Below are positions 1 to 63,210 of a stretch of DNA of 64,000 nt, one piece after another. The notes under the pieces were generated by a model, which saw only the letters and a list, made by a program, of their open reading frames with translations, ran no database searches and had not been told where the DNA came from. The stretch is from assembly GCA_000004985.1 (NCBI GenBank), contig GG738933.1. One strand, written 5' to 3'. This DNA comes from Naegleria gruberi (taxonomy: Eukaryota). Each line of letters opens with the position of its first letter. Position 1 is the first letter of the stretch. The position numbers and the translations under genes were made by a program.

Positions 1-457
1 AAACCCAAACCCAAACCCAAACCCAAATCCAAACCCAAACCCAAACCCAAACCCAAACCCAGGCCCAAACCCAAACCCAAACCCAAACCCAAACCCAAAC
101 CCAAACCCAAACCCAAACCCAAACCCAAACCCAAACCCAAACCCAAACCCAAACCCAAACCCAAACCCAAACCCAAACCCAAACCCAAACCCAAACCCAA
201 ACCCAAACCCAAACCCAAACCCAAACCCAAACCCAAACCCAAACCCAAACCCAAACCCAAACCCAAACCCAAACCCAAACCCAAACCCAAACCCAAACCC
301 AAACCCAAACCCAAACCCAAACCCAAACCCAAACCCAAACCCAAACCCAAACCCAAACCCAAACCCAAACCCAAACCCAAACCCAAACCCAAACCCAAAC
401 CCAAACCCAAACCCAAACCCAAACCCAAACCCAAACCCAAACCCAAACCCAAACCCA
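1..457. repeat. Terminal telomeric hexamer array (CCCAAA)n, i.e. (TTTGGG)n on the G-strand, about 76 units with a few variant units (AAATCC, AGGCCC)
   Basis: A perfect 6-bp tandem repeat runs from the first base of the window. The C-rich strand reads 5'->3' at the left edge, which is the orientation expected for a genuine left telomere. The array ends abruptly at 457 and joins a unique unit. Confidence 0.85.
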
Positions 458-9441: not shown

Positions 9442-9704
9442 TTTTTTGTGGTGATTGTGGTTTCTTTCGCACCACTAGACGAAAGGTTTAGATTCTGTAC
9501 GAACGGAAAAAAGTAAGAGTTGACAAATCAAGAAGTAATTTAGCATGTTTCGTCTCACTTCTGGTAGGGAATATTTTCCAAAAACCGTTACTGAAAATGA
9601 TTTCTTTTTTTTGTTGTAGGTTTACAATAAAGTGTATCATCTATTCGAAATTGGAAGTTTATCTCGCTTCGAGCAATCCTTACAAAGTGATGGAATGCTG
9701 AAGT

Positions 9705-10970: not shown

Positions 10971-11394
10971 ACCATTATTATTATATTAATTTGGAACGCT
11001 CACTTGTTGTTGAGCATTTTCTTGAGCCAATGATTTATTCATCGGCACCACGTGCGATGTTCTTGTTGATTCACGCGTTCTTGCTATGCAAAATTGTGCC
11101 GGCAATTCAGCACAATTGATTGGGATTTTTGTTTTTGAATATCTGATGAAATTTTGGCGCCCTTTTCATGAACGGTCAATGAAAAGTTCAAATCAAAGAA
11201 CTTATTTGGAAGTGATAAAATTTTACTGTTGGTATCACTCTGTAGAAGAGTTTATAACATCTTAATATTGTAAATCAATTTGTTAATGATGGGTTGTTTG
11301 AGCTTCAATCAAAATCGCTCAATTTCCTTTTTGAAATGTTGCTAATGTTCAAAAAGGCAAGAAAAATCTATTTTCAAATAATAAAATAAAAAAA

Positions 11395-39140: not shown

Positions 39141-42100
39141 ATGCCACATCACACAAGACAGGATTTATCCGAATCTTGTGATTCATCCAATAATAACAAT
39201 AACTCTTTCATTCCCTTCTATATGAGGGATGATTTACCAACCAACAGACAATCAAAAGCAAGAGTCAACCAGAGAAGAAGAAGAAAAACCGTTCAAGATG
39301 TTCTCCAACAAAAGGTTTCTGCTTCTCCTTCGAATAATAATAATTTGATATCAGCTGCTGCTGGACCTAATATTCAACATCCTTCCTCTAATAATATTAA
39401 TATTAATAATAATTTGAATAATAGTAATGGAGGTTTCTTGTCATCTCTTCAACAACAACAACAGAATAATAATAATAATAATTATACATCATCAACTAAT
39501 ATTCATCATCAACCTCCGTTGGCTCCCAAACCTCCTCAATTATTAAGTAATAATAATAATATTCTAATGGAATTCATTCGGTTGCAACAAATACACCACT
39601 GAATATTCTACCAAAGACTTTAATGCAACAAACAAAACAAATTAATTCTCATCCTCATCCGCACCAACAACAACATCATCATCATGTACCAATTCTTCCA
39701 AAGCAACAACCTTCCATATCACCTCGACCTCCTCCGACTGCGCATGTTAATCCAAATCAATATCCTCTACCATTCCCTCCTTCTCCCCTCACCTACCAAC
39801 ACTACTATCAACAACAACAACAATACGCTCTCAATCAAAACAGCAGCAACAATAATCAACAATCCGTAACGACACCTCCTCAAGGCATTTTCCCCGCTCA
39901 AACTTTTACAGAAATTACAACAAAATTTGGCGGCAGTGTGCAATATAGAAATCGAAAAAGTTTGGGAAGCGAGCAAGAAAAATTGTCATCGTCATCTTCC
40001 TCCTCGCACTCAGATGTGATTCATCACCATCATCACAACATTAATAGTAGTAGTAACAATTTTAGTGGTGGAGAGAAACAACGAATTCAATTAGGGCTAC
40101 ATCAACAACAACAACATCATGGAATTATTTCTACGAGTGCTGCCTCGAATAATATTGAAAGTAGTGTGGTAATTATTGGAGAGAGTAGGAGACCAACAAT
40201 AGCAAATAGTATAAATAATAATGGAAAGGGTAGTGGAGAGGAAATGTTGATTGATTCAACTCCAACTCCAAAGGTATTTACACCAAGAACGACGAGTAGT
40301 AGCATGGTAAAGAAGGAAGAGCATGAAGGAAAGAAGCCATTGTCAATTTCATCATTTCTCTCTGCTCAATCTGGTAATCCTACGGCTTCAGCATCATCAG
40401 CAAGTAGAGCTCCAACTTCTCCACGTTCCAATTATATTAATGGAGTCAAGACTGTTTCTACAGCAGCTGTTCACAGATTGAAACGTTTGCAACAACAGAT
40501 TCGTTCCTCTGATTTGCATGCTATCAACTCATCTGCACAAGTATTGAACTATTTAAAGATGGTACAACAACAGCAACAAGCTTATATTCAACAAAGAATG
40601 ATGCTTCAATCAAGTTCCATTCCTTCCCTGAATATTTCTGTCAATCATATTAAGAATCAATTGTACAATCCTAACTCTGTAACTCCATCTTCCACAGCAA
40701 CAAATGCTGCTGCCAACAATAATTCACAAGAATATTTACCATCTACCTTTATACCTTCCTATCAATTGGATCCAACTGTGGATATGATGATTTCTAATTG
40801 GGAAAATCAAATCAGACAACGTCAACGACAACAGAAAATGCAAAAGTATAGAGTTCCAAATCTTCGTATTCCTCCACAAGATTTTGCCTCTAACTTTATG
40901 ATTGATTCCTCATCGAGTGGAGGAAGCAGTAAGGGATCTCATTCAGATCGTTCTGAAGCTTGGATGAGTGCACGATTTGCAAGCTCCACCATCAGTAGTG
41001 GAAGAGGAACACTAAGTAGTGGACTGGGAATTTCTCCACTCAATTCACCTAGTTCTTCTTGTGGAACTGTTAGTGACTGTGGTGTGCACTATACTGCCGA
41101 TCCAAATGATCTCATATCACCTAGGATTCAACATCATTCCAGACATAGTCACATGCTCATTACTGCCGAACAATTGTCTCCAGAGGATGGAGACAATGAT
41201 GACGAAGATGATGAGGATGGAGACACACTCATGATTGATGATTCTTCCCCAACAGCTCCTAACAAGGTTCTTCCACCAATTTCTACTTTGAATTTACCAC
41301 CACTCAACTTGCTCTCTATTTCTCCTAGTACTGGTGATCATCAACAAGATCATTCTAAGAGTTGTCCAAATTCTGTCTCTAATAGGGAAAGTGACCAAGG
41401 AATTCAAACACTGTTTGGTTCAGGAAGTCACAAATCAGTTCAACCAAATCCAATTTCACTCAACAATACACCACCAGTGAGTCATGGTACTACATATAGA
41501 CCAGAAGGATTCATTACACATCGTTCACATCAACAACACTATATCAATAATCATCATTCTAATTTAACATCATCGTCAGGAAAACAAATTCATCACCAAG
41601 TTCATTCTACCCAACGAAGAGTTGATTCTCAACATGTTGAAAGTTTAATTTCCTCAACCAATGTATGTCCATCTCCAAAACGTTCAAACCATCAATATCA
41701 TCCATATCCTCTCACCAGTCCTAGATCTAAAAAGAAGAAGGTATCCACTCAAGATCAACCAACAGAGATTGAATCTATTTCATTCAATTTCCCTCCACCT
41801 CCTACTTCAAATCCATCTGAGTCATCATCCAATGAACAAGTTGCCAATCAGGAAGAAATTCAACAACGTATGTCCATGCAACTTTTCCAAGCCATTTTCA
41901 GACATACACCTCTACCAATGTTCATTCTCAATTCCAAGGGTAAATTCATGTCTGTTAATCATGCCTTTGTTAACATGCTAGGTTATAATCAAGAGGATCT
42001 CTTTTCCAACAAGTTTGCCTCTGAATTTGTTTCGAATGAACACGAATTGATGCAACAAATTCACAAATGCTCACACGAGGGAGGACTGAACAATGGAGTA

Positions 42101-42256
42101 GCAAATCAACAACACTATTCATTGTCTTTTAAGGATTATGAAGGATTGGAAATTCAAGCAGAAAATACCATTTACGTTCTCAGAGATGTCATGTATGCAG
42201 GAGAATTCTTTGTATTCACAGTTACCAACTATCAATCTTCTGCCTCACGTGAATAA
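39141..42256 (+). CDS. Large N/Q/S-rich low-complexity protein with a C-terminal PAS-like domain (two ORF segments, 39141..39602 and 39623..42256)
   Basis: Homopolymeric N, Q and H tracts. The C-terminus LFQAIFRHTPLPMFILNSKGKFMSVNHAFVNMLGYNQEDLFSNKF...IYVLRDVMYAGEFFVFTVTNYQ is PAS-like. The second segment's frame is open upstream across the first segment's stop. The two are therefore probably one gene, separated by a frameshift or a small intron. Confidence 0.45.
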
Positions 42257-47228: not shown

Positions 47229-49382
47229 TTAAGGATCTACGTTGGCAGATTTGAAAGAACCCAATAATGGAGATTCGACAAGTTTAGTTTCACTTAGTTT
47301 TCTTTCTAACATTCGAATTTTAGCTTGCATGTTTAGAATAGTTTTTCCACTTTCTCTATTTTCAACTGCCTTTCTCAAATCTTTAAGGAATGCAATTCTA
47401 AACTGTGCTGTCAGTGTCGAATTTGCAGATCCAACAAAAGTTGCAGATAATGGATCTTGAAGTTTCATATTTCTTACACGAATGTCAGCTCCCAAATCAA
47501 TTAGTTTCGTACAAATATCCTTTCTTCCAAGTTGTGAAGCTACATGAAGTGGCGTATCACTACTCAAATTCTTTTGATTCATCATGACATGAACATCCAT
47601 AGACGAATCTTCTGACATGTACGAAATGGCTATTTCCAACATTTCAACTCTTCCATAACCAGAAATCCAATGCAACATGTTATTCTTGTTCTTATCTCTC
47701 AAATTGGCAAGTTTTTGTCTATCAGAATAGAAATGATTCAAAATCCATTCGAATATTTGATCACAACCTTGTTTGTTTCCAATAGTTCTGATGGCAAACC
47801 AAATTGGTTCGTTCATGGTGATGGTTGTGTTGGTGGATGGGAAGGTTGGTTTGAAATCATAGTTGGAAATGAGTGATCCCAAAAAGTCTAATGTCTTTCG
47901 GCTAGTTTCTTGCTTGTCAGTACACAATAACATGCACAAGGTCAGTAAATTGTGAACTTCTTCCCGATCTTCCTTTGCTGCACACGATGTTGATGGACTT
48001 GAAACACCAAAACTTGAATCTAATCCATGTCTATTTCCAAATAAAGCCTTATTAACCATTGGATCAGATGCCTCAATTGAGCTACCATTGGAAGATGACA
48101 TTTTACAAGTGGCATTCATGTTAGCTCCTCGAGAAATCAAGAAGTGAGCAATATCAAAGTGACCTCTCAATATAGCCAAATGTAAAGCACTTGGAAAATC
48201 TCTACGTGATTGAGTTTCTGATTCTCTTGCTTCAACATCAACTTTGACTTCATCAATTAGATATTTGACAACATTGAATGCACCACCGAGAACTGCACTT
48301 GTCAATGGAGTATGATAATAATTATCCACATGAAGATTAACATCAATATTTGACTTTTCCAGCATTTTCTTGACGAGATGTAATCTGTTATATTTACAGG
48401 CATAGTTAATGAGAGAAACTCCTTGGTGGGTGATTCTGGCAAGTTGATCACCAGTGAGACCCATCTTGTCAAAGATGAAATCCATGCACTTGTCGTTTAA
48501 TTCTTGCTCCTTTTGGACAGTTTCGAATGATTTGGACGAAAGGGAATTATGAGGTGTACTTGTAATGATTAATTTGAACATTAACAAGTACATGTTCTTC
48601 TTACATCTTGGATCGAGATTTTCATGTTGGAGAGAAATGACACTAGATTCGTATTGAGTTTCGTATTCGTCTTGTAATCGAATAAGTTCTCTAAATAATT
48701 CTTCACTTTCATTGAAGAAACAGGCTGTGTGAATTGGTTGTAAACCTCTTGAATTGGTTCCAAAAAGGGATTTCTTGACAAGATCTTTGACTGATGGCAT
48801 TTCTTCTGATTTGAGAGTTTCTAATTTTTGTAAAGATTCGATTAATGATTTGAGGATTTTAGATTCTGCATTTGGAGTTTCACAAAGCAAGTGAACAATA
48901 TTACCATCATCAAGATAACTTGACAAGCCTTTGATCATTATTGGAAAACATGAATATTCTGTATAAATTTGCAAGTACTGATTATTCGAAAGGTAATACG
49001 AAAGTCCACTACAATCATTCTCATCAAAATAATCTCTCAGCCTCTCTGTCATCTTTTTGGTAACATATCTTTCATCCAAATTCAAAGCATACGAAGGATT
49101 AGTCTCCAAAAAAACATCAATCATCTGTTTGACAGTCTTATTAAACGAAAGGTTTGAATTCGGCAATTGTTCACCAGTTGTTGGATTAGTCTGACGTCTA
49201 ACTAACCATTCTTCAATAGCCTCTCTTTCAAAAGTATCACCAAGAGCAGTGACAACTGGATCACACATTATTCTTCTCGTAATTGGACAATATATCAAAT
49301 CTTTGATTGGATTCGAATCTGTTTGTTGCTGACCAAGTGATGGACTATTCATTCCTAAAGCAGGGCTGTTGCGATTTGACAT
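47229..49382 (-). CDS. U-box E3 ligase-like protein with ankyrin repeats
   Basis: The U-box is IYCPITRRIMCDPVVTALGDTFEREAIEEWL...NPTTGEQL. ANK repeats follow (TPLTSAVLGGAFNVVKYLI, ALHLAILRGHFDIAHFLISRGANMNA, DTPLHVASQLGRKDICTKLIDLGADI). The ORF track start at 49442 is GTG. The first ATG is at 49382. Confidence 0.6.
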   Translation of the reverse strand: MSNRNSPALGMNSPSLGQQQTDSNPIKDLIYCPITRRIMCDPVVTALGDTFEREAIEEWLVRRQTNPTTGEQLPNSNLSFNKTVKQMIDVFLETNPSYALNLDERYVTKKMTERLRDYFDENDCSGLSYYLSNNQYLQIYTEYSCFPIMIKGLSSYLDDGNIVHLLCETPNAESKILKSLIESLQKLETLKSEEMPSVKDLVKKSLFGTNSRGLQPIHTACFFNESEELFRELIRLQDEYETQYESSVISLQHENLDPRCKKNMYLLMFKLIITSTPHNSLSSKSFETVQKEQELNDKCMDFIFDKMGLTGDQLARITHQGVSLINYACKYNRLHLVKKMLEKSNIDVNLHVDNYYHTPLTSAVLGGAFNVVKYLIDEVKVDVEARESETQSRRDFPSALHLAILRGHFDIAHFLISRGANMNATCKMSSSNGSSIEASDPMVNKALFGNRHGLDSSFGVSSPSTSCAAKEDREEVHNLLTLCMLLCTDKQETSRKTLDFLGSLISNYDFKPTFPSTNTTITMNEPIWFAIRTIGNKQGCDQIFEWILNHFYSDRQKLANLRDKNKNNMLHWISGYGRVEMLEIAISYMSEDSSMDVHVMMNQKNLSSDTPLHVASQLGRKDICTKLIDLGADIRVRNMKLQDPLSATFVGSANSTLTAQFRIAFLKDLRKAVENRESGKTILNMQAKIRMLERKLSETKLVESPLLGSFKSANVDP

Positions 49383-49757
49383 TCTTTGTGTTGTTTTTTT
49401 TGTGTCGATTAATTTGATTAACAGCTGACAGTTCCTTACCACTCATTATTTATAACAAACACACAAACAGTTGCAGTTAGCATGAAAAACGCTCGATGAT
49501 GTGCTTGTGCAAACAAGTTTAAGTGGCAAGTAGAAAATGTGATGGAGAATTGAGAAGGTTGCCCTTTAAGGCAATAACAATTTTGGCGGGAAAGTTTGAT
49601 GTGAGGTGAAGTGTTTGCCTAGACAAAATGTATTGAGGTGCGTCGAGTTGTTTCTTGTTGATTTTAAAAGGCTTGTTAGAGGTGGGTATCTATCAGAAAT
49701 CAAAGATGCGAATGAAAGAAAAATCTTTTAATGCATTTTGGCGAATCTATTCAGATT

Positions 49758-52700
49758 CTATTTCTCACTTCGTTTGTAAATAGGTTTTGAATCAATTTGA
49801 TAAATAAGGAAGGCTCTTCCAATAAATTTGGAAATAGCAGCTTGGATCTCTGGCCATTTCTTTAAGACGTTATGGTTGGGGATCTTATCTATATATTCAT
49901 TCTCAAAAAAGGTTATGCCTGAGTGATGGAAATATAGCACATATGAGTATTGGAAAGGAATTTCTTGGATAGGGGAGAGTGAACACTCAGGTCTATCAAG
50001 TATTTCTGTTAATCTATTTTGACAATATCTTCTTTGATTGTCTAGTCTGGGGCATTCATGTATGTAATGTTCTAAATTTGAGGGACAATTACAATCTGAG
50101 CAGGTTGGATTCAATTCATCTTTCTTCTGTGTATATTTGATATGAGAATTTGAAGCGTTTCGCCAAATTTGATATTTGGTTTTAGGTGACAGTCGTGACT
50201 TGAGGTAGGCTACATTAATTGATGACCAGCTTTGGTTTGGAATAAAGTTGGGATTACTATCAATTGCTTCGTGCATCTCCTTAAGTTGGCGATTTACAGT
50301 CATTCTTTTGCAATCAAAGATCACAATATCGTTTTTCATAAGTAAATATTGGTTGGTTAGTAAGGATTTGATATCAAAGATCTTATCTCTTTCAGTTCCA
50401 TCTTTCGCAAGGCGATCTACTATTATATTTTCCTTATCTTCATGTCCTTTAACTTTGATTATATAAACTGAAATATTCTTTTCTTTTTGGATATTGAAAA
50501 ATTCAGTTTTGAAAGGGAGAAAGTTTCCTTTGTATTTTCTGGATAGGACATCTATTGCAACTTTGCTATCTGTGTGTATTCTAGCGGTTGTTCCATTTGG
50601 AAGTAGTTTCATTGCAGTGATAATTGCTCCTATTTCTGCAACATTGTTAGAGTATTCATTATTGATACGGAGTGAAAGGCTTTTACAAGGTGATAACCTT
50701 CCACCGGATTCATATATATTAATACCCATACCTGTTTTACCTGCAAGCTTGGATCCGTCTGTATGGATAATAAAGCATCTATTGGTTTCATTCACTTTCT
50801 TTAATCTGAATTTGGTATGATTCTTTTTGAAATCTAAATTATATTTCTGAAGTATTGACATCCATTGAATGAAAATGTTATTACTATTATCATTGGTATG
50901 ACTAATTCCAAATTTAAAAGCTTTCTGAACTAACTTGTTATTGGAATTTGCTATTAAGGAGAGAGTTCTTAAATTAAGTCTGTCTGTAAATTCTTCAATT
51001 GAGGGAACACCGAGTCCACCTTCTTCTAATGGTAGGTGGAAAAAAGCTGTTTTGGTGGTTCTGTCTAGTTTTAACTTTGTTCTGAGTACATTTCTAATGC
51101 AAATATCTATTCTTGATACCAGTGATGGAGGAATGACATTAAGTTTGGATAGATGTGTAAATAAACTAATCACTTTAGCATGAAGGACTTGTCTTAAATT
51201 ATGGGGTTGAAGTTTGAGTATTGGGAAATATTTCAGTGATTCATTGAATTTAGCTATCTTGCTTTCAATATCTTCTTTGACCAATTTATCTTCCCAAGGG
51301 TAGTGTCCGAGAACTCTAAGATTTTTCTGAATGGGAATTGGCACTTGTTTGATTTTTGGTATGATTTTGCTTTTTGTGGGAAGGAGAGTGGCAATTGACT
51401 TTTTTGCATTTAATTTGAAAAGCAATTGAGATAACCAGTCGTCGATGTTATCTAGTCTTCCATTATAATTTGTGAATCTGTCGCATACTATATTCATATC
51501 GTCAGCGAAACAACAAAGACCAATTTCGTTTGCATTCAATTCAGATGGTTCTATTGGTAGTTGCCATTGGTCTATTGCTTTGTCTATTATGAGTTGTGTA
51601 ATACAATCGTAAATAAGAGGTGCTAATGGGCAACCTTGAGGAATTCCTCGTGTTTTTGTGAAGTTATTTGATAGATGTTTGTCAATTTCTAATTGTAAAC
51701 TGTGATTGCTGTATGCATTAATTATAAAATCAGTTAGTGGTGTTGGGAATTTACAATGATTAAGGGCCATCCTAATAACCGGCATCTCCACTGCGTCGTA
51801 GGCACCTTCAATGTCAAGGTTGACTAATATAAATGTTCTTCGTCTAGTTTTCAAGGCCAGGGAGGAAAGTACTATTCCATGGTTCATTGTATTTCTATTA
51901 TTTATGAAGGCCTGTTGTCTCATATTAATCTGAGAGCTAGCCCATTCACATAATTTGTGGGCGATTAAATTAAAAAGGATTCTATAAAATATTGGTAGTA
52001 TTGTGATGGGTCTAATATCTCCTAATGTTTTAACTTCTCGCTTTGGAATCAGTTTAACCCAACCGTGTTTCCATTCTTGGGGGATATCTCCTTGTGTTAA
52101 ACATTTGTTAAACTCTTCAACTATTAAAGCTAATTTCTCTAATTTTAAGCCCTTGATGATATCTAATGAAATTTCGTCTTGTCCTGGTGTATTCGATTTC
52201 ATTCTTTTAATGGTTTCTTTTACATCTCTATATGAAATCCGACCTATATCTCTAGGACCTGAAGTGATAGTGGATGGACTTGGCATAAAGGTTGGTGTTT
52301 GATTGGAGGTTGTAAACTTTTTGGAAAAATAATCTAAAATTTCTTGTTCTCCAAATGGCAATTCTTTCCAGATAATTTCTTTAGAATGCAGTTTTCTATC
52401 AAATTGATACATGTGGGAGGCGTGACTATTGTTATATTTGTCAGTTAATTGTTCTTTGATTTCTTTACATGATTGGATGTGAGTCTCTTTAAGAATTGTT
52501 TGTAGTTCTGATATTTCATCAAGTCCAACATTTGGGTCTTCTAATTTACCCATAATCTTATTTTCTAATTTACGAATTTTACCTTTAAATATGGAGGAAA
52601 TAATGCTACCACCAAGTCTGTCAACTTTGGTTCCATATTTTGCAATGTTGTTTTGTATTTCTGCATTTAATTCTTGAAATGTATTGGCATTTGACGTATT

Positions 52701-53486
52701 TATCTCTTTGATCATTTCTTCTCTTTTCTTCTTACCAATATATGATCTCCAATTTAAATGTGATTTGAATTCAATATCAATGTAAAAAGGGATGTGATCA
52801 TTACTTGTGAGCGGTGGAAGGAGTTCTTCTTTGATAACCTTAATATCTTTAGACACGAAAATGTGGTCTAATCTTGAAGTGGTGATTCTATTCTGTTGTC
52901 TTCTAATGTAAGTCTTATTATTAGTCTTATATTCTGTTAGTTGGAGTAGATTAAATAGCCAGCACCATTCTTTATCTCTACCGTTTGAAGGATTAATGGT
53001 ATTGATATTAAGATCTCCATTAATTATGACATGTTCATCTCTACATGTCAGTACTGCATTTGTTATACTGTTCATGGCTTCAACATCATTTTCTTTATCA
53101 TCAACTCTTCCACTAAGATATGGAGTGAAAATATTAATTGGTATACCTTTGCTTTCGAATCGTGTCCATTGAAGAACACCTGGAATTAGATTGATATTAG
53201 TAATATTTCTCTTGTGAGGGTTGTTAAGGAAGTGCATAACAGCCGTCCCTTTTTTTCCTTTCGTTGTATTCATTAAGGAGTTAAATAATATATAGCCTGT
53301 TCCTGAATTTTTAACTTTATATTCTAGATCAGGAGTATTTAAATGAGTTTCGGTTAACGAAATCATGTGTATTTTATGATGAAGACACATTGATTTCACT
53401 TCTGGTGTAACCGATTTCTTACTAGCATGTTTATACAGGCCGTTTACATTGTAACACGCTAGTCGTAAATTACTATAATTACTCAT
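49758..53486 (-). CDS. LINE ORF2: AP-endonuclease - reverse transcriptase - RNase H - CCHC zinc finger polyprotein (1242 aa)
   Basis: N-terminal exo/endo/phosphatase motifs (CYNVNGL, SLTETH, GDLN, SRLDHIF). RT motifs occur around FADDMNIV. RNase H motifs are IHTDGSK and KVKGHED. The C-terminus is a CCHC module (CSDCNCPSNLEHYIHEC). Confidence 0.85.
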   Translation of the reverse strand: MSNYSNLRLACYNVNGLYKHASKKSVTPEVKSMCLHHKIHMISLTETHLNTPDLEYKVKNSGTGYILFNSLMNTTKGKKGTAVMHFLNNPHKRNITNINLIPGVLQWTRFESKGIPINIFTPYLSGRVDDKENDVEAMNSITNAVLTCRDEHVIINGDLNINTINPSNGRDKEWCWLFNLLQLTEYKTNNKTYIRRQQNRITTSRLDHIFVSKDIKVIKEELLPPLTSNDHIPFYIDIEFKSHLNWRSYIGKKKREEMIKEINTSNANTFQELNAEIQNNIAKYGTKVDRLGGSIISSIFKGKIRKLENKIMGKLEDPNVGLDEISELQTILKETHIQSCKEIKEQLTDKYNNSHASHMYQFDRKLHSKEIIWKELPFGEQEILDYFSKKFTTSNQTPTFMPSPSTITSGPRDIGRISYRDVKETIKRMKSNTPGQDEISLDIIKGLKLEKLALIVEEFNKCLTQGDIPQEWKHGWVKLIPKREVKTLGDIRPITILPIFYRILFNLIAHKLCEWASSQINMRQQAFINNRNTMNHGIVLSSLALKTRRRTFILVNLDIEGAYDAVEMPVIRMALNHCKFPTPLTDFIINAYSNHSLQLEIDKHLSNNFTKTRGIPQGCPLAPLIYDCITQLIIDKAIDQWQLPIEPSELNANEIGLCCFADDMNIVCDRFTNYNGRLDNIDDWLSQLLFKLNAKKSIATLLPTKSKIIPKIKQVPIPIQKNLRVLGHYPWEDKLVKEDIESKIAKFNESLKYFPILKLQPHNLRQVLHAKVISLFTHLSKLNVIPPSLVSRIDICIRNVLRTKLKLDRTTKTAFFHLPLEEGGLGVPSIEEFTDRLNLRTLSLIANSNNKLVQKAFKFGISHTNDNSNNIFIQWMSILQKYNLDFKKNHTKFRLKKVNETNRCFIIHTDGSKLAGKTGMGINIYESGGRLSPCKSLSLRINNEYSNNVAEIGAIITAMKLLPNGTTARIHTDSKVAIDVLSRKYKGNFLPFKTEFFNIQKEKNISVYIIKVKGHEDKENIIVDRLAKDGTERDKIFDIKSLLTNQYLLMKNDIVIFDCKRMTVNRQLKEMHEAIDSNPNFIPNQSWSSINVAYLKSRLSPKTKYQIWRNASNSHIKYTQKKDELNPTCSDCNCPSNLEHYIHECPRLDNQRRYCQNRLTEILDRPECSLSPIQEIPFQYSYVLYFHHSGITFFENEYIDKIPNHNVLKKWPEIQAAISKFIGRAFLIYQIDSKPIYKRSEK

Positions 53487-55123
53487 TTAGAAAGAGTACA
53501 AGATGATGAGCTTTTTGATTCTTCATCATCTTGCATAATAGAATTATTAGTACTATTATTTATATAATGGGAGATTTTGTCAATAAGTTCCATTGTATCA
53601 GCTAATGCTTTCTTAAAATCACGCAGTTCAGTTTCAATATTAGATAGTCTAGTTTCAAATAGATTGGTTGTTGTATTAATAGTAGGAGTAACTACAGAAT
53701 TAGTGGTTGAACTGGTATTATCGTTAGATTGTATAGGATTGATCATAGGATTAGTTACTTCCGGTAATTTAGAGTTAGTTAGAAATGGATATTGTTTTTG
53801 TTTTCTTTCAATTATTTCATCTAATTGTTTAATAGATGGTACGAAACAGTAACTGGTTCCATCAGTAATGTTTTGTTTGGTATTGAGAACAATTTTCTTG
53901 TCAATAAATAGATTCATTTCGTCAATATTTGAATGGACGACTTTACATAATTTAAAGGTAGTGGTATTGGATTTGTTTTTGGATTCAGTTATCATGCATT
54001 GGTTAGTATTGAAATCTTTTTTAATGCGTTCGTATACACGAGTAACACCATCGATGATTTCCTTGTTTGTAAAGGTAGGTGGAAATAAACATTCTGAAAC
54101 ATTAGTAGGAGTTTCATTACGCAATTGTTCAACAGATTTGTAATTAGTTAAATTAAGCTTCTTTCTAATAACTTCGCACACATCTTCGTTTTCGTATGAA
54201 ACTCTAATTATATATTTACCATGTGATTGGTTTGTATACATTTGGGAGATAAGTATAGTATTATCGTTATTAACTGAGTGTTTGATTAGTGATTTAATCA
54301 TATCAATGTGTTGTGAATATATGTGTGTAGAGTGAGTTAGAGCGTACAAGCTATGCTCGAATACAGCAGGTGATGGGAAGAATTTCAATATTAAATCATT
54401 GTGTACACTATCAAGCATATCTTTGCAAAGAATATAATTGTCATTACTATTGCAATGAAGATTAATGACATTACTAGTTTGGGGTCTTATTTTAATGGTG
54501 GCAAATTCCCCAAAGATGTCCATAATTTGTTCCATGAATTTGTTATTAATTCTTTCATAGCAGATAATATTAAGTGAATGTGTCAAATCGAATTTCTTAT
54601 TTTGCTTGACTGGTTTTTTACCATAGAATGAAATTGAGCGTTTCATTTTGATTTGTTTTGCTATAGTTTGTTTGATACTTGGTTGAGCTTTTATAGGGTG
54701 ATACTTCACCATATCCAAATATGGAGTAAGTTGTAGTTTGGTATTTTGCTCAATAGGGTTCTTACTACATTCATATTTTGGTTTAATATTACTAGTAATG
54801 GAATGAATTTGTTGATTTCTATTTTGGGGAGTTGACTTAATATTTTGGATTTCTGAAGTAGGTTTTTTAAATGAATCAGTAGAAATGTTAGTGGTAGAAG
54901 TATCTTCTTGATTAATATTATCAACTTTAACCTTTACATCTTTGTCTTGTACAAACTCGGATTTAAACATTATTTTGTCGTAAATCTTTTGCATAGTTTC
55001 CATGTATTTTTGAAGACGAATATTTTCAATCCGATATGAATCGACTGCTTGTTCTAACACAAGAATCCTGTTAGTCAGCTGCAGACAATTTATTGGATCA
55101 GGAGGGCGGTCATGTAAAGGCAT
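53483..55123 (-). CDS. LINE ORF1 (546 aa, N-terminal coiled-coil, nucleic-acid-binding-type protein)
   Basis: It lies immediately upstream of ORF2 within the TSD-delimited element. Its stop overlaps the ORF2 start as ATGA. The N-terminus is heptad-rich. Confidence 0.7.
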   Translation of the reverse strand: MPLHDRPPDPINCLQLTNRILVLEQAVDSYRIENIRLQKYMETMQKIYDKIMFKSEFVQDKDVKVKVDNINQEDTSTTNISTDSFKKPTSEIQNIKSTPQNRNQQIHSITSNIKPKYECSKNPIEQNTKLQLTPYLDMVKYHPIKAQPSIKQTIAKQIKMKRSISFYGKKPVKQNKKFDLTHSLNIICYERINNKFMEQIMDIFGEFATIKIRPQTSNVINLHCNSNDNYILCKDMLDSVHNDLILKFFPSPAVFEHSLYALTHSTHIYSQHIDMIKSLIKHSVNNDNTILISQMYTNQSHGKYIIRVSYENEDVCEVIRKKLNLTNYKSVEQLRNETPTNVSECLFPPTFTNKEIIDGVTRVYERIKKDFNTNQCMITESKNKSNTTTFKLCKVVHSNIDEMNLFIDKKIVLNTKQNITDGTSYCFVPSIKQLDEIIERKQKQYPFLTNSKLPEVTNPMINPIQSNDNTSSTTNSVVTPTINTTTNLFETRLSNIETELRDFKKALADTMELIDKISHYINNSTNNSIMQDDEESKSSSSCTLSK

Positions 55124-59125: not shown

Positions 59126-60302
59126 TTACAAATTGAAAGATAATCTTTCCCATTCACCAACAGCACTTCTATTGACAACAATATCTCCACTTGGTTCCAC
59201 ACAAACATAGGTATTATGTTCAGATTTCAATGCAATAGCTCCATTTCCATGCAATTCAACACTAAATTGTTCCCAAGGTCCAACAGCATCACGATTAGCA
59301 ACCAACAAACCACTTGGTTCAGCACACATCAATTTACCATGAGCAGATCTGAATGCATTCTTTCCAGCTCCATGATGTTCAACAGTGAATTGTTCCCAAG
59401 GACCAACTGCATCACGATTGGCAACCATTGAATGATTTGATTCAGCACACAACAATTTACCATGATGATGTCTCAATGAAATGCTCTGATTTGGAGCCAA
59501 TGAAAATTGGAACTGTTCCCAAGGTCCCAAAGCATCTCTATTAGCAATAACTAATCCAGATGGCTCAGCACACAAGAATTTACCATGAGCTGATTTGAAT
59601 GCCACTTGATTTCCAGATTGAACCAATGAGAAAGTTTCCCACGGACCCAAAGCATCTCTATTGGCAATAATTTCACCACTTGGTTCAGCACACATGAATT
59701 TTCCATGAGCTGATTTGAATGCATAATCATTTCCAGAAATGTGAATCAAAGTCATTGCTTCCCAAGCTCCACTGGCATCACGATTGGCGACAACTTGACC
59801 ACTTGGTTCGATACAGAAGTATTTGGAATGACAAGATCTGAGATTGGCCAATAGGGAACGATGTTTGGCTGAGTGGATAGTGTAGGATCCATGTGGACCA
59901 GAATAATTGGTTCCTGGATAGGACATGCCACCTCCAGTGACGAAAAGATAGACATTGATAAAGTCGGAGAGGGAAATGGACTTGCTCTTGGCATGATCAA
60001 CGAGTTTAAATAAGAATCTAATGAAATTTTGATTATTCGAAAGTAAACTATTTCTGTACTTACTTGATTTCTTCCTTGGCGAGACCAATATCTTGAGCAG
60101 CTTTCTTCCATTCCTTCTTATTCATGGAATTGGAGTGATCCTTGTCGTATTGTTGGAAAGTAGATTGTGCTTGAGAGATGAGTTGTTGATCTTGACCATG
60201 TTGAGGCTAAAGTAGAGTAAACTAGACGAAAGTATGAGAATGCGTACTTACAATTTGGAAACCAGAAGGTGCCCATGATGGTTGTTGTCCTTGATACCAC
60301 AT
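59126..60302 (-). CDS. EF-hand pair + six fascin/hisactophilin-like beta-trefoil repeats (3 exons)
   Basis: Exons are 60302..60252, 60206..60075 and 60029..59126, with GTAAGT introns. The EF loop is DKDHSNSMNKKE. Six ~40-aa repeats follow, of the form AFKSAHGKF(M/L)CAEPSG..(I/V)ANRDA.GPWE.F, similar to hisactophilin (AFKSHHGHFLSAEGEAV) and fascin trefoil subrepeats. The exon 2/3 boundaries are approximate to a few nt. Confidence 0.6.
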
Positions 60303-60540: not shown

Positions 60541-63210
60541 TTAGAATTTGAATGGAACAACAGTTTTGTTACTATAAGTCTTGATAGGTAATTGAGGATA
60601 AAGTGTTAAATCTGTTGTTGAATCTCCTTCTTGTTCAATGACAAGTCGTTTAACTTTTAAAATTTTCAAATTAGTTTCCAAATCCGAAAGTGGAAATTCG
60701 TCTGATAATAGATCAAATAGTCTCTCCTTGGATATTCCTTTTTGAGTTGTTTCCTTCTTCTTAATTTTGTAAATAGTTTGAATTATTCTAGTTTCGATTA
60801 AATTTTCCACAAAATTCGAATTCCTATATTCGTAATCCAGATAGGCATCTTGATACTTTTCATAACAATTCAATCGTTTCAAACATGATAGACAGAGCGT
60901 ATTAGTACTTGGATTAAAATTATCTTTTGTAATTTCCTTATTTTCCAAATATTGAATAATAAAATGTCCATTACAATCATTAATTATTCTTTGTTTCCTT
61001 AATAGTAAAGAATTGAATGGAGAATAAAAGTAAGTAGAACAGTATTGGCAGCGTACAATGCTAAATTTGCAAACTAAATGTCCATATGAATATTTAGATT
61101 TCACAAGATTTTGATTTTCTGGTAGAATTTGAAATAAATCTGAAGGTCTTTTCATAAATTCATATTCGTCAAGTTTCAATCGTTTGAGAATATCTGCTTC
61201 TGCTTCTGCTTCTTGTTCTGGTTCAAAGTTAAGAGATTGGTTACATTTTCTGCGTGATTGTTCCTTGACAGTAAATAGAATGCCATTTGTCAAACATTTT
61301 TCCACAAATTGAAAGGAAACACTCTTCAATACGACAGGATAAAGCAAATTGGATTCATCTATATCTTTCGAATTGTAGGCGTCTGGAATATATCCTTCAT
61401 TACCCTTCACAAATAATTCAACCAATGGATTATTTCCCATTATGATACCTTCAGTTTGAATTCGGTTTGCATATTTATCAATGAGTGACTTTCGAATTCT
61501 TTCCACAATAAAATCACAATGCATTGCGTGAAAGAGAGGATGAAAGGAATCAGCAACAATGGTTAAGAAACCTCTTTTTCCATATTTCAAAGCTCTTTCG
61601 TGGTGGACTTCACTGGTTCCTCCTGATTCTCTATTGATGAAATTAATCTTATACTTGAGAGATCGCAAACATTCCAAAACTGTCAATATTCTCTCGCCAT
61701 CATACACAAGTTTACAACAATCCAAATCAAAAAATAAAAGTAACTCCTCAATGGTCTCATAGTTCAGTAATACTATTTGAATATTTGCATTTCCTTCTTG
61801 GCAAATATTAATAGAAGCTTTGGAGCTCATCATATTGTACTTTAAATGTGAGGTTTTCTCTTCCAATTTCAATAAAACTTGTTTGATTGCTTGACTGATA
61901 ACCTCTGCCGATTCTCCATTATTAATGACAAATAAATCAAAATCACTGAAACCACAACCTGTCAATGTGTGAAGTAGAGATCCTCCTGAAATGACAAAAC
62001 GTTCTCTTGTCTTGGTAGTTTTGTTATGTTCAAATGCACATTCATAGAATAAAATTCTAGCCAATTCGTAATCTTTCAAAATTTCATTCTTGAATCGATG
62101 TTGAAAATCTGAAAATGTCATTTCATATGGATTCTTGAAAAATCTCACAATTCTTTCACATTTTGTGGCATTTGGACTTGTTTCTTTATCCATATAATAA
62201 TGATAATCACGAGCACGGTTGTTAAATTCGTATGAATATTCCAACATATTTGGAAGGATTACACAATCTACTTTTGGCAACCCAGAAACCACATTATACC
62301 ATGGTTTTTTATCAAAGTTCATAAATGAGCATCTTCTCTTGACCAATTCATCGAAAGTGAGATAATAAGTGTCTGGTTGAGTAAATATTCCATAGGGAAA
62401 TACTGGAATGGCTTCTTCCTGTATTTTAATAATCTCTTCAAATTCCTTATTCGAAAAAATTTTCGCCTCCTCAATGGCCTGTGAATTGATCGCATCAATC
62501 ATTGGATCTCCCACCTTAAATGTTCTAAATTTCAAATGGTCATGAAAATACCTCACTGGCCACTTGACAGTACTCTTCATCCTAAAATATTGATCATAGG
62601 TCATCATGACATTCTCATTCGAATCCTGATGATAAACTAAACTCTCATTCCAACACGGTTCTCGTACCGTATTGGAGAATAAATCCACCAATCGATTCAC
62701 ATTCCTAATATCCCTTCTCTTATTGAGAATATCAATTCTTAATCTTTCAATACTTTCTCCATAAACTCGATCAAACAAATCATAAACTCCACGACAAGTC
62801 TGAATGAAATTAAACAATGCATACTTGTCCATATAAAACATCAAATCGAGTAGAATTTCAGATGGAAGTAATTTGATTAAATTTCGATTCGGATTTTGAA
62901 ATTCTCTCAAAACATTTTGTCCATTATTTTCAACAAGTGAATTTTCATGACGATTTCCTGACCATGAATAAATATCTCGTTGTTTTCTTCTCTTTTCGTA
63001 TCTATCACAAAAGTATGGATTTACAAGATTTTTAGAGGAAATTGATTCGGGTTGAATTTGATCGAATGTGAAAGTTGTGAATTCGTCGTTTTGGTTAGTG
63101 TCGAAACTTGGAACTAACAAGGCAACGGGTTGAGGTCCTCGAGGAGAATCGTAAAAGTTATTGGAAAGTGTGGCAGTTTCTAATAGAATATCATCCCATG
63201 ATCGTTTCAT
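60541..63210 (-). CDS. F-box protein with an internal nucleotidyltransferase-fold signature and a Cys-rich module
   Basis: 889-aa intronless ORF. The F-box-like segment is LIKLLPSEILLDLMFYMDKYALFNFIQTCRGVYDLF. The NTase motif RFVISGGSLLHTLTGCGFSDFDLFVINNG fits hG[GS]-x9-13-Dh[DE]h of the Pol-beta/OAS/cGAS superfamily, and FFDLDCC downstream is a possible third acidic residue. The Cys-rich segment is CKFSIVRCQYC...CNGH...CLSCLKRLNC. Confidence 0.5.
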   Translation of the reverse strand: MKRSWDDILLETATLSNNFYDSPRGPQPVALLVPSFDTNQNDEFTTFTFDQIQPESISSKNLVNPYFCDRYEKRRKQRDIYSWSGNRHENSLVENNGQNVLREFQNPNRNLIKLLPSEILLDLMFYMDKYALFNFIQTCRGVYDLFDRVYGESIERLRIDILNKRRDIRNVNRLVDLFSNTVREPCWNESLVYHQDSNENVMMTYDQYFRMKSTVKWPVRYFHDHLKFRTFKVGDPMIDAINSQAIEEAKIFSNKEFEEIIKIQEEAIPVFPYGIFTQPDTYYLTFDELVKRRCSFMNFDKKPWYNVVSGLPKVDCVILPNMLEYSYEFNNRARDYHYYMDKETSPNATKCERIVRFFKNPYEMTFSDFQHRFKNEILKDYELARILFYECAFEHNKTTKTRERFVISGGSLLHTLTGCGFSDFDLFVINNGESAEVISQAIKQVLLKLEEKTSHLKYNMMSSKASINICQEGNANIQIVLLNYETIEELLLFFDLDCCKLVYDGERILTVLECLRSLKYKINFINRESGGTSEVHHERALKYGKRGFLTIVADSFHPLFHAMHCDFIVERIRKSLIDKYANRIQTEGIIMGNNPLVELFVKGNEGYIPDAYNSKDIDESNLLYPVVLKSVSFQFVEKCLTNGILFTVKEQSRRKCNQSLNFEPEQEAEAEADILKRLKLDEYEFMKRPSDLFQILPENQNLVKSKYSYGHLVCKFSIVRCQYCSTYFYSPFNSLLLRKQRIINDCNGHFIIQYLENKEITKDNFNPSTNTLCLSCLKRLNCYEKYQDAYLDYEYRNSNFVENLIETRIIQTIYKIKKKETTQKGISKERLFDLLSDEFPLSDLETNLKILKVKRLVIEQEGDSTTDLTLYPQLPIKTYSNKTVVPFKF

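What the first reader, a model, noticed from the sequence alone, without database searches (positions are those of the whole stretch)
60541..63210. F-box protein carrying a cGAS/OAS/Pol-beta-type nucleotidyltransferase signature plus a Cys-rich module
The 889-aa intronless ORF begins with an F-box-like segment. At about residues 400-430 it contains RFVISGGSLLHTLTGCGFSDFDLFVINNG. This is a textbook hG[GS]-x11-D-h-D-h NTase active-site pattern, as in OAS (GGSxxKGTxLxxxSDADLVVF) and cGAS/CD-NTases. A candidate third acidic residue lies in FFDLDCC. A C-terminal Cys-rich segment (C..C...C..H...C..C) and a possible winged-helix tail follow. Physical fusion of an SCF-type substrate adaptor to a putative signalling NTase is unusual. 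It is reminiscent of the ubiquitin-like conjugation machinery associated with bacterial CD-NTase (CBASS) systems and with cGAS regulation. It could represent an undescribed regulated nucleotide-second-messenger or nucleotidylation enzyme.
Basis: partly seen in the sequence, partly recalled or inferred. Interest (0 to 1): 0.6.

Follow-up and report, generated by a model that had tools for sequence, protein, structure and literature searches.

The report
F-box protein with Gad2-type nucleotidyltransferase
This Naegleria gruberi gene encodes an F-box protein whose central domain really is a nucleotidyltransferase, but it belongs to the family of the phage anti-Gabija protein Gad2 (a divergent relative of tRNA CCA-adding enzymes) and is not cGAS/OAS-like; no member of that family has a known substrate.

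Summary
A single 889-aa ORF (60541-63210, minus strand) is identical to N. gruberi NAEGRDRAFT_60034. It has an F-box at residues 114-149, the GGS-x11-DFDLF motif at 404-432, FFDLDCC at 493-499, and a conserved CxxC...CxxC module at 721-776.

The domain is already a Pfam family, PF26128 "Gad2". Profile comparison links it to the real Gad2 of Bacillus phage SPbetaL7 (probability 92.5%, E 5e-7). The query core and Gad2 also match the same two PHROG families.

The family is large: 1272 representatives, in protists, giant viruses and phages. GG and DxD are near-invariant. A Gln is invariant on a strand of the core sheet; a Pandoravirus preprint places the equivalent Gln at the site of the usual third carboxylate. 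Members are repeatedly fused to BTB, F-box, ankyrin and SDR domains.

My reading is a catalytically competent, probably RNA-3'-end-directed nucleotidyltransferase docked on Skp1/SCF. The substrate is unknown. It is a new architectural variant of a known but mechanistically unsolved family. Interest is moderate.

The parts
60541..63210 (-). Whole intronless ORF, 889 aa plus stop; equals N. gruberi NAEGRDRAFT_60034.
   Evidence: ORF listing. 100% identity and 100% coverage to P0001.
62881..63210 (-). Residues 1-110: poorly conserved N-terminal leader with no recognisable domain.
   Evidence: The alignment of 6 homologues shows almost no conserved columns before residue 114. No Pfam match.
62764..62871 (-). 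Residues 114-149: F-box (LLPSEILLDLMFYMDKYALFNFIQTCRGVYDLF).
   Evidence: Pfam PF00646 scores 17.2 bits in the full protein. The isolated segment scores 22.2 bits, E 1.2e-4, above the 20.5 cut-off, and 5 of 6 homologous segments match. Skp1 binding is inferred, not tested.
62077..62625 (-). Residues 196-378: Heterolobosea-specific conserved region between the F-box and the NTase (motifs MxTYDxYF, WP..Y, PYG, D.Y.L.F..VKR, IVRFFK.P..M..DF..RFKN).
   Evidence: 41 invariant columns in 6 sequences. No PDB sequence relative. Only low-confidence structure in the 7-sequence model. Function unknown.
61486..62085 (-). Residues 376-575: Gad2-family (Pfam PF26128) Pol-beta nucleotidyltransferase domain, equivalent to the head plus part of the neck of class II CCA/PAP enzymes.
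61915..62001 (-). Residues 404-432: motif A, strand-GGS-helix-strand carrying G409, G410, S411 and the metal-ligand pair D423/D425.
   Evidence: String verified. Secondary structure is E29-33, H35-42, E49-54 of the model. G409/G410 are 98/99 and 97/99, and D423 and D425 are 99/99, in 99 representatives. Aligns to GGAVRD...DRD of E. coli Cca and to AGGA...DVD of Gad2.
61759..61785 (-). Residues 476-484: strand NIQIVLLNY with family-invariant Q478 (consensus QI[IV]LR).
   Evidence: Q is present in 98/99 representatives and is conserved in Gad2 (LQMIH) and in Bordetella phage BB8 p30 (VQLIL). The Pandoravirus preprint places the equivalent Gln at the site of the third carboxylate. I could not check this geometry, because the tools return no model coordinates.
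61696..61734 (-). Residues 493-505: FFDLDCCKLVYDG, the counterpart of motif B (RRDFTINA) of class II enzymes. D495 is retained and the two Arg are lost.
   Evidence: hhalign to E. coli Cca aligns F493-F494-D495 with R-R-D. F494 is 97/99, D495 98/99, D497 94/99 and C499 87/99. Only F, D and the second Cys persist in phage members.
61567..61596 (-). Residues 539-548: RALKYGKRGF, a basic helix of the neck (R539, K542, Y543, R546, G547).
   Evidence: R539 97/98, K542 96/98, Y543 94/98, R546 92/98. Aligns to ...LRVARFAARYAHLGF of E. coli Cca and to RVQKY of Gad2.
60883..61080 (-). Residues 711-776: H711, C721-x2-C724 ... C773-x2-C776. Putative four-Cys zinc-binding module (zinc-ribbon-like).
   Evidence: The four Cys and H711 are invariant in all heterolobosean homologues, including Acrasis kona. 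No Pfam or PDB match. Zinc binding is inferred from the pattern only.
60544..60813 (-).
   Evidence: Aligned only among P0001, P0002 and P0003. No sequence match to solved structures beyond noise. Not modelled, so unresolved.

Best explanation
The gene encodes a Heterolobosea-type F-box protein. Its cargo domain is a Gad2-family (Pfam PF26128) nucleotidyltransferase. That family is a divergent offshoot of the head and neck of class II CCA-adding enzymes and bacterial poly(A) polymerase.

Shown here:
- The fold.
- The family membership.
- Near-invariance of the GG turn and the DxD metal ligands across about 100 representatives, from protists and giant-virus-like sequences down to phage Gad2.
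- Retention of the motif-B Asp (D495) and of a basic neck helix (R539/K542/R546).
- Loss of the RR of motif B, of the EDxxR base-templating motif, and of any tRNA-binding body or tail.

Inferred:
- The domain is catalytically active and binds an NTP plus Mg2+ through D423/D425, with Q478 substituting for the usual third carboxylate.
- It transfers an NMP to a hydroxyl. The most likely acceptor is the 3'-OH of an RNA, because every close structural relative (CCA-adding enzyme, PAP, TENT5, MenT) does this.
- It has relaxed or different base specificity.
- The N-terminal F-box docks the enzyme on Skp1. This either places it in an SCF ligase, so that what it binds or marks is ubiquitinated, or keeps a potentially toxic enzyme short-lived by auto-ubiquitination.
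- The conserved CxxC...CxxC module is a zinc-binding element that may help bind the acceptor.

My confidence that this is a Gad2-family NTase on an F-box scaffold and is not cGAS-like is about 0.9. That it is catalytically active, about 0.65. That the acceptor is an RNA 3' end, about 0.35. The overall confidence given (0.6) is for identity plus catalytic competence on an SCF-type scaffold.
For: - ORF and identity.
- F-box above the Pfam cut-off as an isolated segment, and in 5 of 6 homologues.
- Core model with pLDDT 91.4 and an a1-b1-GGS-a2-b2(DxD)-a3-b3-b4-b5 topology.
- Foldseek against PDB: CCA-adding enzymes at E 6e-7 to 1e-4.
- hhalign of the family profile against E. coli Cca: E 0.002 over 139 columns, aligning motifs A and B and the neck helix.
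- Family profile against PDB sequences: weak TRNT1 and CCA-enzyme hits exactly at motif A.
- PF26128.2 on every homologue, and the name Gad2.
- hhalign to genuine Gad2 (OQ921347.1, 109563-110765): probability 92.5%, E 5e-7, 143 columns. To Bordetella phage BB8 p30: probability 97.6%, E 4e-12.
- Shared PHROGs 1614 and 4400.
- Residue conservation.
- 1272 family representatives.
- Fusion partners.
- Gad2 was found to be required for phage SPbetaL7 to overcome Gabija, was predicted to be an NTase, and the SPbetaL7 protein was toxic in bacteria.
- An independent description of the same motif set in Pandoravirus BTB-NTase proteins.
Against: - No member of PF26128 has a demonstrated activity or substrate. 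A 2026 review still lists the mechanism of Gad2 as unresolved.
- The canonical third carboxylate is a Gln. The RR of motif B and the EDxxR motif are missing. No RNA-binding body or tail domain is detectable. RNA tailing is therefore an argument from nearest neighbours only.
- 17 of 85 family representatives are fused to a short-chain dehydrogenase. This fits small-molecule chemistry better than RNA chemistry.
- The F-box score is marginal in the context of the full protein, and an F-box-region profile found no F-box protein among PDB sequences.
- Skp1 binding, zinc binding and catalysis are all untested.
- I could not inspect the model coordinates, so the positions of Q478 and D495 relative to D423/D425 rest on alignment and on the Pandoravirus preprint.
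Confidence: 0.6

Rival explanations
1. One reading: a cGAS/OAS/CD-NTase-type signalling enzyme that makes a nucleotide second messenger and is regulated through ubiquitin machinery, as in CBASS Cap2/Cap3.
Confidence: 0.06
2. A pseudo-enzyme: the NTase domain has lost catalysis and serves as the substrate- or ligand-binding domain of an SCF receptor, in the way NF45/NF90 DZF domains or MiD49/51 are inactive NTase folds.
Against: GG and both Asp of DxD are invariant in 97-99 of 99 representatives spanning phages to protists. That pattern is expected under selection for metal and NTP binding. The phage member Gad2 is toxic when expressed, and a single gene gives a dominant anti-defence phenotype, which fits an enzyme better than a binder. 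The Pandoravirus preprint cites evidence that class II CCA enzymes need only the two motif-A carboxylates.
Confidence: 0.15
3. A bona fide tRNA CCA-adding enzyme or poly(A) polymerase of Naegleria that happens to carry an F-box.
For: The top structural hits are CCA-adding enzymes and E. coli PAP I. Motif A is very similar.
Against: Pfam PolyA_pol (PF01743) is not matched even at E<=10. Motif B RRD is FFD, and EDxxR is not recognisable. There are no body or tail domains. hhalign to E. coli PcnB covers only motif A. The family has its own Pfam entry and more than 1000 representatives with unrelated architectures.
Confidence: 0.04
4. A protein- or small-molecule-directed nucleotidyltransferase (AMPylase/UMPylase of GlnE/GlnD/DrrA style, or a metabolite-modifying enzyme). 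The F-box, BTB or ankyrin modules bring in a protein target, or the SDR partner handles a small-molecule product.
For: Fusion partners are almost all protein-protein interaction modules (F-box, BTB_2, Ank, VWFA) or an SDR oxidoreductase (17 of 85). There is no RNA-binding domain. Neochlamydia F-box proteins carry a different (DUF294, GlnD-like) putative NTase, which is a parallel architecture.
Confidence: 0.25

Closest known systems
Gad2 (Gabija anti-defence protein 2) of Bacillus phage SPbetaL7; Pfam PF26128 'Gad2'
   Same: Same Pfam family. hhalign probability 92.5%, E 5e-7 over 143 columns, with AGG, DxD, the invariant Gln, FDxxxC and R..KY aligned. Shared PHROGs 1614 and 4400. Predicted NTase of unknown mechanism.
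   Different: Gad2 is a 400-aa stand-alone phage protein with the NTase at its N-terminus and an unrelated C-terminal half. It has no F-box, no zinc module and no long N-terminal extension. Its known role, countering the bacterial Gabija system, has no obvious counterpart in an amoeboflagellate. Direct tblastn of the Naegleria core against phage genomes finds nothing; the link needs profiles.
Pandoravirus 'cluster 7' BTB-nucleotidyltransferase proteins (e.g. A0A2U7UAG2; bioRxiv 10.1101/2023.12.02.569716) and other giant-virus BTB/ankyrin/VWFA proteins
   Same: Same motif set: motif A conserved, Gln at the site of the third carboxylate, 'DFD' instead of RRD, and conserved Arg residues in the neck. 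The same top PDB neighbours (3wfr, 3aqk, 6qy6). Pandoravirus, Pithovirus, Bodo saltans virus and Fadolivirus proteins are the best BFVD matches to my model (E about 5e-10). The NTase is likewise fused to a cullin-RING adaptor domain.
   Different: The adaptor is BTB (Cul3-type) rather than F-box (Cul1-type). The hosts are viruses, not a cellular genome. Regions outside the NTase are unrelated. The preprint's proposed role (maturation of viral tRNAs) is speculative and untested.
Class II nucleotidyltransferases: tRNA CCA-adding enzymes and bacterial poly(A) polymerase I (Pfam PolyA_pol, PF01743)
   Different: RR of motif B and EDxxR are absent. There are no body or tail domains. Pfam PF01743 is not matched. 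A Gln sits at the third-carboxylate site. Sequence identity is 9-17%.
TENT5/FAM46 non-canonical poly(A) polymerases
   Different: No sequence-level link found. Different helical lobe. No F-box.
cGAS / OAS / bacterial CD-NTases
   Same: Pol-beta superfamily core with G[GS] and DxD.
Neochlamydia NEX2 proteins: F-box + DUF294 putative nucleotidyltransferase + TPR (PMC4209131)
   Same: The same architectural idea, an F-box followed by a putative NTase, in an organism tied to amoebae.
   Different: A different NTase family (DUF294, GlnD-like). Bacterial effector-like proteins with TPR repeats. Independent origin.

Membership tests
Pfam PF26128 'Gad2' nucleotidyltransferase family | Match to the curated family model. 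| tested here: met
   The exact protein (P0001) and all homologues returned carry precomputed PF26128.2. The accession is labelled 'Gad2'. The local Pfam copy lacks this model, so I could not re-score it myself.
Pfam PF26128 'Gad2' nucleotidyltransferase family | Detectable homology to the founding protein, Gad2 of phage SPbetaL7. | tested here: met
   hhalign of the 60-sequence family profile against Gad2 translated from OQ921347.1: probability 92.5%, E 5e-7, 143 columns. The query core and Gad2 both hit PHROG 1614 and PHROG 4400.
Pfam PF26128 'Gad2' nucleotidyltransferase family | Shared motif set: AGG[SA], D[IV]D[IL]F, Q[IF][IV]L, FDxxxC, R..KY. | tested here: met
   Conservation table for 99 representatives; alignments to Gad2 and to BB8 p30.
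Pfam PF26128 'Gad2' nucleotidyltransferase family | Anti-Gabija (anti-defence) activity. | not testable with these tools
   This is a phenotype known only for phage members. No Gabija-like target is known in Naegleria.
Pol-beta nucleotidyltransferase superfamily | Alpha/beta core with G[GS] at the strand-helix turn and DxD on the next strand. | tested here: met
Pol-beta nucleotidyltransferase superfamily | Third acidic metal ligand on a neighbouring strand. | tested here: not met
   No conserved Asp or Glu lies on strands b3-b5. The invariant residue there is Q478. The same observation was made for the Pandoravirus homologue. The geometry was not checked directly because no coordinates are returned.
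Class II CCA-adding enzyme / poly(A) polymerase (PF01743) | Motif A GGxVRD...DxD. | tested here: met
   hhalign to E. coli Cca and PcnB aligns GGS...DFD with GGAVRD...DRD.
Class II CCA-adding enzyme / poly(A) polymerase (PF01743) | Motif B RRD and motif D EDxxR. | tested here: not met
   RRD is replaced by FFD, keeping only the Asp. The EDPLR region aligns to TSEVH with no conserved E, D or R at the templating positions.
Class II CCA-adding enzyme / poly(A) polymerase (PF01743) | Match to the family HMM, and tRNA-binding body and tail domains. | tested here: not met
   No PF01743 or related hit at E<=10. Downstream and upstream regions have no PDB sequence relatives.
cGAS/DncV-like (CD-NTase) / OAS / Mab-21 | Match to family HMMs (Mab-21, OAS1_C, PADLOC CD-NTase models). 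| tested here: not met
   No Pfam hit at E<=10. No PADLOC hit at E<=10 for the query or for the Acrasis homologue.
cGAS/DncV-like (CD-NTase) / OAS / Mab-21 | These enzymes are the closest structural neighbours, with the bilobal NTase-plus-helical-lobe cage. | tested here: not met
F-box proteins (SCF substrate receptors) | F-box motif recognised by Pfam PF00646. | tested here: met
   22.2 bits against a 20.5 cut-off for the isolated segment, and 5 of 6 homologues match. Sub-threshold (17.2 bits) in the full-length scan. UniRef names the protein 'F-box domain-containing'.
F-box proteins (SCF substrate receptors) | Binding to Skp1 and assembly into an SCF complex. | not testable with these tools
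   Needs pull-down or co-folding with N. gruberi Skp1. A profile of the region found no F-box chain among PDB sequences.

The most novel reading that the evidence does not exclude
The phage anti-Gabija enzyme family has a large, so far unstudied radiation in eukaryotes and giant viruses. In that radiation the nucleotidyltransferase is hard-wired to cullin-RING ligase adaptors (F-box in Heterolobosea, BTB in giant viruses and other protists). This could define a conflict or immune module that couples nucleotidyl transfer to ubiquitination. The NTase might mark or sense a nucleic-acid end or a protein, and the adaptor would deliver it, or the enzyme itself, to a cullin ligase. Solving the Naegleria or giant-virus enzyme would then also reveal how Gad2 disables Gabija.
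Probability: 0.12. Interest if true: 0.8.

Novelty: new variant of a known kind. Interest (0 to 1): 0.45.

Why it matters
The catalytic domain belongs to a family (PF26128/Gad2) that matters in phage-bacterium conflict, but its chemistry is still unknown. The family is far larger in protists and giant viruses than in phages (1272 representatives at 50% identity). It has been fused independently to two different cullin-RING adaptor types. That gives a concrete, testable hypothesis about the context in which the enzyme works.

A cellular, intronless, well-conserved Naegleria member is a tractable entry point for biochemistry. For genome annotation, the practical result is a correction. This protein should be labelled 'F-box protein with Gad2-family (class II-like) nucleotidyltransferase domain', not a cGAS/OAS-like enzyme.

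Tried and rejected
- A first AlphaFold run of residues 195-800 with only 7 sequences gave mean pLDDT 50 and was not used for fold searches. Only the core topology agreed with the later model.
- afdb50 was unavailable for Foldseek.
- Direct tblastn of the Naegleria core against 50,697 phage records found nothing. A more central family member gave only three weak hits (E 0.06-0.4), one of which (BB8 p30) was then confirmed by hhalign.
- phmmer of the whole protein against PDB sequences found nothing.
- NCBIfam gave only noise.
- Profiles of the F-box region, of residues 196-378, of residues 556-800 and of the C-terminal tail found no meaningful PDB sequence relatives.
- The region downstream of the NTase is not related to the C-terminal half of Gad2.
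- hhalign to E. coli PcnB covered only motif A.
- I looked for gad1/gad2 in phi3T at 104-116 kb and found neither. Gad2 was instead located through the SPbetaL7 record.
- The one scan of bacterial and archaeal genomes with Gad2 returned just two loci and was not followed up.
- A different phage NTase family that makes decoy cGAMP (motif GS-x-AY..T-x4-SDxD) was considered and rejected, because its motifs do not match.
- Literature searches for PF26128 and for Naegleria F-box NTases found nothing specific.
Full report
**1. What is in the sequence**

The window is a chromosome-end scaffold of Naegleria gruberi. It opens with three blocks of the telomere-type hexamer AAACCC.

On the minus strand, 60541..63210 is one uninterrupted 889-codon ORF. 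Its translation is 100% identical over its full length to NCBI NAEGRDRAFT_60034, which UniRef calls an F-box domain-containing protein.

RFVISGGSLLHTLTGCGFSDFDLFVINNG is residues 404-432, and FFDLDCC lies at 493-499.

The F-box is not at the very start. It lies at residues 114-149. It scores 17.2 bits in the full-length Pfam scan. As an isolated segment it scores 22.2 bits, above the 20.5-bit cut-off, and 5 of 6 homologous segments also match.

Homologues exist in N. gruberi (two paralogues, one extended by RGS and START domains), N. fowleri, N. lovaniensis, Acrasis kona and a metagenome. Conservation runs from the F-box to a C-terminal pair of CxxC motifs. C721, C724, C773 and C776 are invariant in all seven sequences.

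**2. Is the nucleotidyltransferase motif real?**

Yes. An exhaustive profile search found 1272 cluster representatives at E<=1e-3. The shared region maps to query residues about 400-550.

In 99 representatives that cover the core:
- G409 and G410 are present in 98 and 97.
- D423 and D425 are present in all 99.
- F427 is present in 98, Q478 in 98, F494 in 97, D495 in 98, D497 in 94 and N523 in 97.
- R539, K542, Y543 and R546 are present in 92-97 of 98.

A first AlphaFold run with 7 sequences was poor (pLDDT 50). A second run, on residues 376-575 with a 60-sequence alignment, gave pLDDT 91.4 and pTM 0.85. Its topology is helix, strand, GGS, helix, strand (DFDLF), helix, three strands. This is the Pol-beta nucleotidyltransferase core.

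**3. Which nucleotidyltransferase?**

- Class II CCA-adding enzymes next (3h37 10.6, 4wby 10.3, 3wfo 10.0, 9kma 9.9, 1miv 9.0, 1ou5 8.1).
- Then TENT5B/C (8.4, 7.8), NF45 (7.5) and MenT1 (6.8).
- DncV, OAS2, CdnB/E/G and a cGAS-like receptor score only 5.4-6.8.

Foldseek agrees, with CCA-adding enzymes at E 6e-7 to 1e-4.

Sequence evidence points the same way:
- The family profile picks up human and other CCA-adding enzymes at motif A, though weakly (E 0.1).
- hhalign against E. coli Cca gives E 0.002 over 139 columns. GGS...DFD aligns with GGAVRD...DRD. FFD(495)LDCC..YD aligns with RRDLTINA..QD, which is motif B. RALKYGKRGF aligns with the neck helix ...RFAARYAHLGF.
- No Pfam Mab-21, OAS1_C, NTP_transf_2 or PolyA_pol model matches at E<=10.
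- No PADLOC CD-NTase model matches at E<=10.

The 'third acidic residue' proposed in FFDLDCC corresponds to the motif-B Asp of class II enzymes. In those enzymes that Asp reads the ribose rather than binding metal (established knowledge for that family; here it is an alignment-based inference).

**4. The family already has a name**

Every homologue returned by the large protein database carries the precomputed tag PF26128.2. My local Pfam copy lacks this model. The gene table of a metagenomic contig labels it 'PF26128:Gad2'.

Gad2 is Gabija anti-defence protein 2 of Bacillus phage SPbetaL7. According to the preprint:
- It is a 400-aa protein.
- Its deletion makes the phage sensitive to the Gabija system.
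- It is toxic when expressed in bacteria.
- AlphaFold predicts it to be a nucleotidyltransferase.

A 2026 review still lists its mechanism as unknown.

I fetched the real gene (OQ921347.1 109563-110765, annotated 'Gad2'). hhalign of my family profile against it gives probability 92.5% and E 5e-7 over 143 columns, aligning AGG, DVD, the invariant Gln, FDFTVC and R..KY. A 217-aa protein of Bordetella phage BB8 aligns even better (probability 97.6%, E 4e-12).

Independently, the Naegleria core hits PHROG 1614 'nucleotidyltransferase' (E 1.4e-7) and PHROG 4400 (E 9.6e-5). Gad2 hits both as well. Membership in the Gad2 family is therefore well supported.

**5. The wider family and its partners**

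Foldseek against predicted viral structures returns giant-virus proteins from Pandoravirus, Pithovirus, Bodo saltans virus, Fadolivirus, Hokovirus and others, at E about 5e-10. Many are annotated as ankyrin, BTB or VWFA proteins. Genuine viral tRNA nucleotidyltransferases and small phage proteins also appear.

Among 85 representatives scanned with Pfam, 17 carry a short-chain dehydrogenase, 14 a BTB_2 domain, 2-3 an F-box and 1 ankyrin repeats (examples).

A preprint on Pandoravirus 'cluster 7' describes BTB-NTase proteins with exactly this motif set. It reports motif A intact, a conserved Gln where class II enzymes have the third carboxylate, 'DFD' instead of RRD, conserved Arg residues in the neck, and no EDxxR. 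It suggests relaxed base specificity and a role in viral tRNA maturation.

An analogous architecture, F-box plus a different putative NTase (DUF294), is known in Neochlamydia.

**6. How it most likely works**

*Shown.* It is an F-box protein. Its central domain is a Gad2-family, class-II-like NTase with near-invariant GG and DxD, a retained motif-B Asp and a basic neck helix. It has lost the RR of motif B, EDxxR, and any tRNA-binding body or tail. A lineage-specific conserved region (196-378) and a four-Cys module (721-776) flank the domain, and neither has a detectable relative.

*Inferred.* The domain binds NTP and Mg2+ and transfers an NMP. Because all close structural relatives act on RNA 3' ends, an RNA 3'-OH is the most likely acceptor. 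The F-box docks the enzyme on Skp1. This either makes it an SCF receptor for whatever it binds or modifies, or limits the level of a potentially toxic enzyme.

*Rivals:*
- A protein or small-molecule nucleotidylase, favoured by the protein-interaction and SDR fusion partners.
- An inactive ligand-binding pseudo-enzyme, disfavoured by the invariance of the metal ligands.
- A cGAS-like messenger synthase, disfavoured by fold ranking and HMMs.
- A true CCA-adding enzyme, excluded by the missing motifs and domains.

**7. Novelty and verdict**

The protein and its family are already in public databases, and a viral BTB version has been discussed in a preprint. I found no description of the F-box version, or of the link between phage Gad2 and this eukaryotic and giant-virus radiation, in the literature I could search.

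I rate it a new architectural variant of a known but mechanistically unsolved family, of moderate interest.

*Caveats:*
- No coordinates were available, so I could not measure active-site geometry.
- The PF26128 model itself could not be run locally.
- Nothing about catalysis, Skp1 binding or zinc binding has been tested.

Noticed in passing
window 1-457, 820-1271, 2234-2466: Three separate arrays of the telomere-type hexamer AAACCC (TTTGGG on the other strand), with 39-76 copies each. They are separated by unique AT-rich sequence and runs of N (about 770-818 and 1941-2230). This looks like a chromosome end, possibly with mis-joined telomeric contigs.
   Followed up: partly
window 49758-53486 (-) and 53483-55123 (-): A non-LTR retrotransposon. 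Its 1242-aa ORF carries AP-endonuclease, reverse-transcriptase (RVT_1, E 3e-26) and RNase H domains. It is preceded by an overlapping 546-aa ORF with no Pfam match, probably ORF1.
   Followed up: no
window 47229-49442 (-): A 737-aa protein with an N-terminal U-box (E 8.5e-17) and ankyrin repeats. This is another ubiquitin-ligase-type gene about 11 kb from the F-box gene.
   Followed up: no
window 59126-60088 (-): The immediate downstream neighbour: a 320-aa protein built of repeated beta-trefoil fascin/FRG1-like units (FRG1 E 3.7e-33, Fascin E 7.6e-25), with the recurring motif ANRDAxGPWE.
   Followed up: no
window 39623-42256 (+): An 877-aa ORF with a C-terminal PAS domain (E 5.7e-8) and no other Pfam match.
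   Followed up: no
related proteins P0011, P0026, P0039 and 14 others: 17 of 85 representative Gad2-family proteins, including ones from Naegleria fowleri, Willaertia magna and Vannella, have a short-chain dehydrogenase/reductase domain C-terminal to the NTase. This recurrent NTase-SDR fusion hints at small-molecule chemistry and is unexplained.
   Followed up: partly
P0003 (N. gruberi paralogue, 1374 aa): One paralogue of the finding extends the same F-box-NTase-zinc module with a C-terminal RGS domain (E 3.6e-9) and a START-like lipid-binding domain (E 2.6e-4).
   Followed up: no
L003 9445-11062 (metagenome contig ERZ28548090, 128.8 kb): A BTB_2 ORF (9445-10056) overlaps the start of a Gad2-family ORF (10001-11062) on the same strand. 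This is probably one BTB-NTase gene split by a frameshift or intron. The contig mixes ankyrin, kelch, filamin, EF-hand and TPR genes with many orphan ORFs, so its origin (giant virus or protist) is unclear.
   Followed up: no
L005 1432-2085 (Bordetella phage vB_BbrP_BB8, gene bb8_p30): A 217-aa 'hypothetical protein' lying between the primase/helicase and DNA polymerase genes of an Autographiviridae phage is a clear Gad2-family/PHROG 1614 nucleotidyltransferase (hhalign probability 97.6%; PHROG E 5.7e-23). Its motif A (GGGALRD) is closer to that of CCA-adding enzymes.
   Followed up: partly
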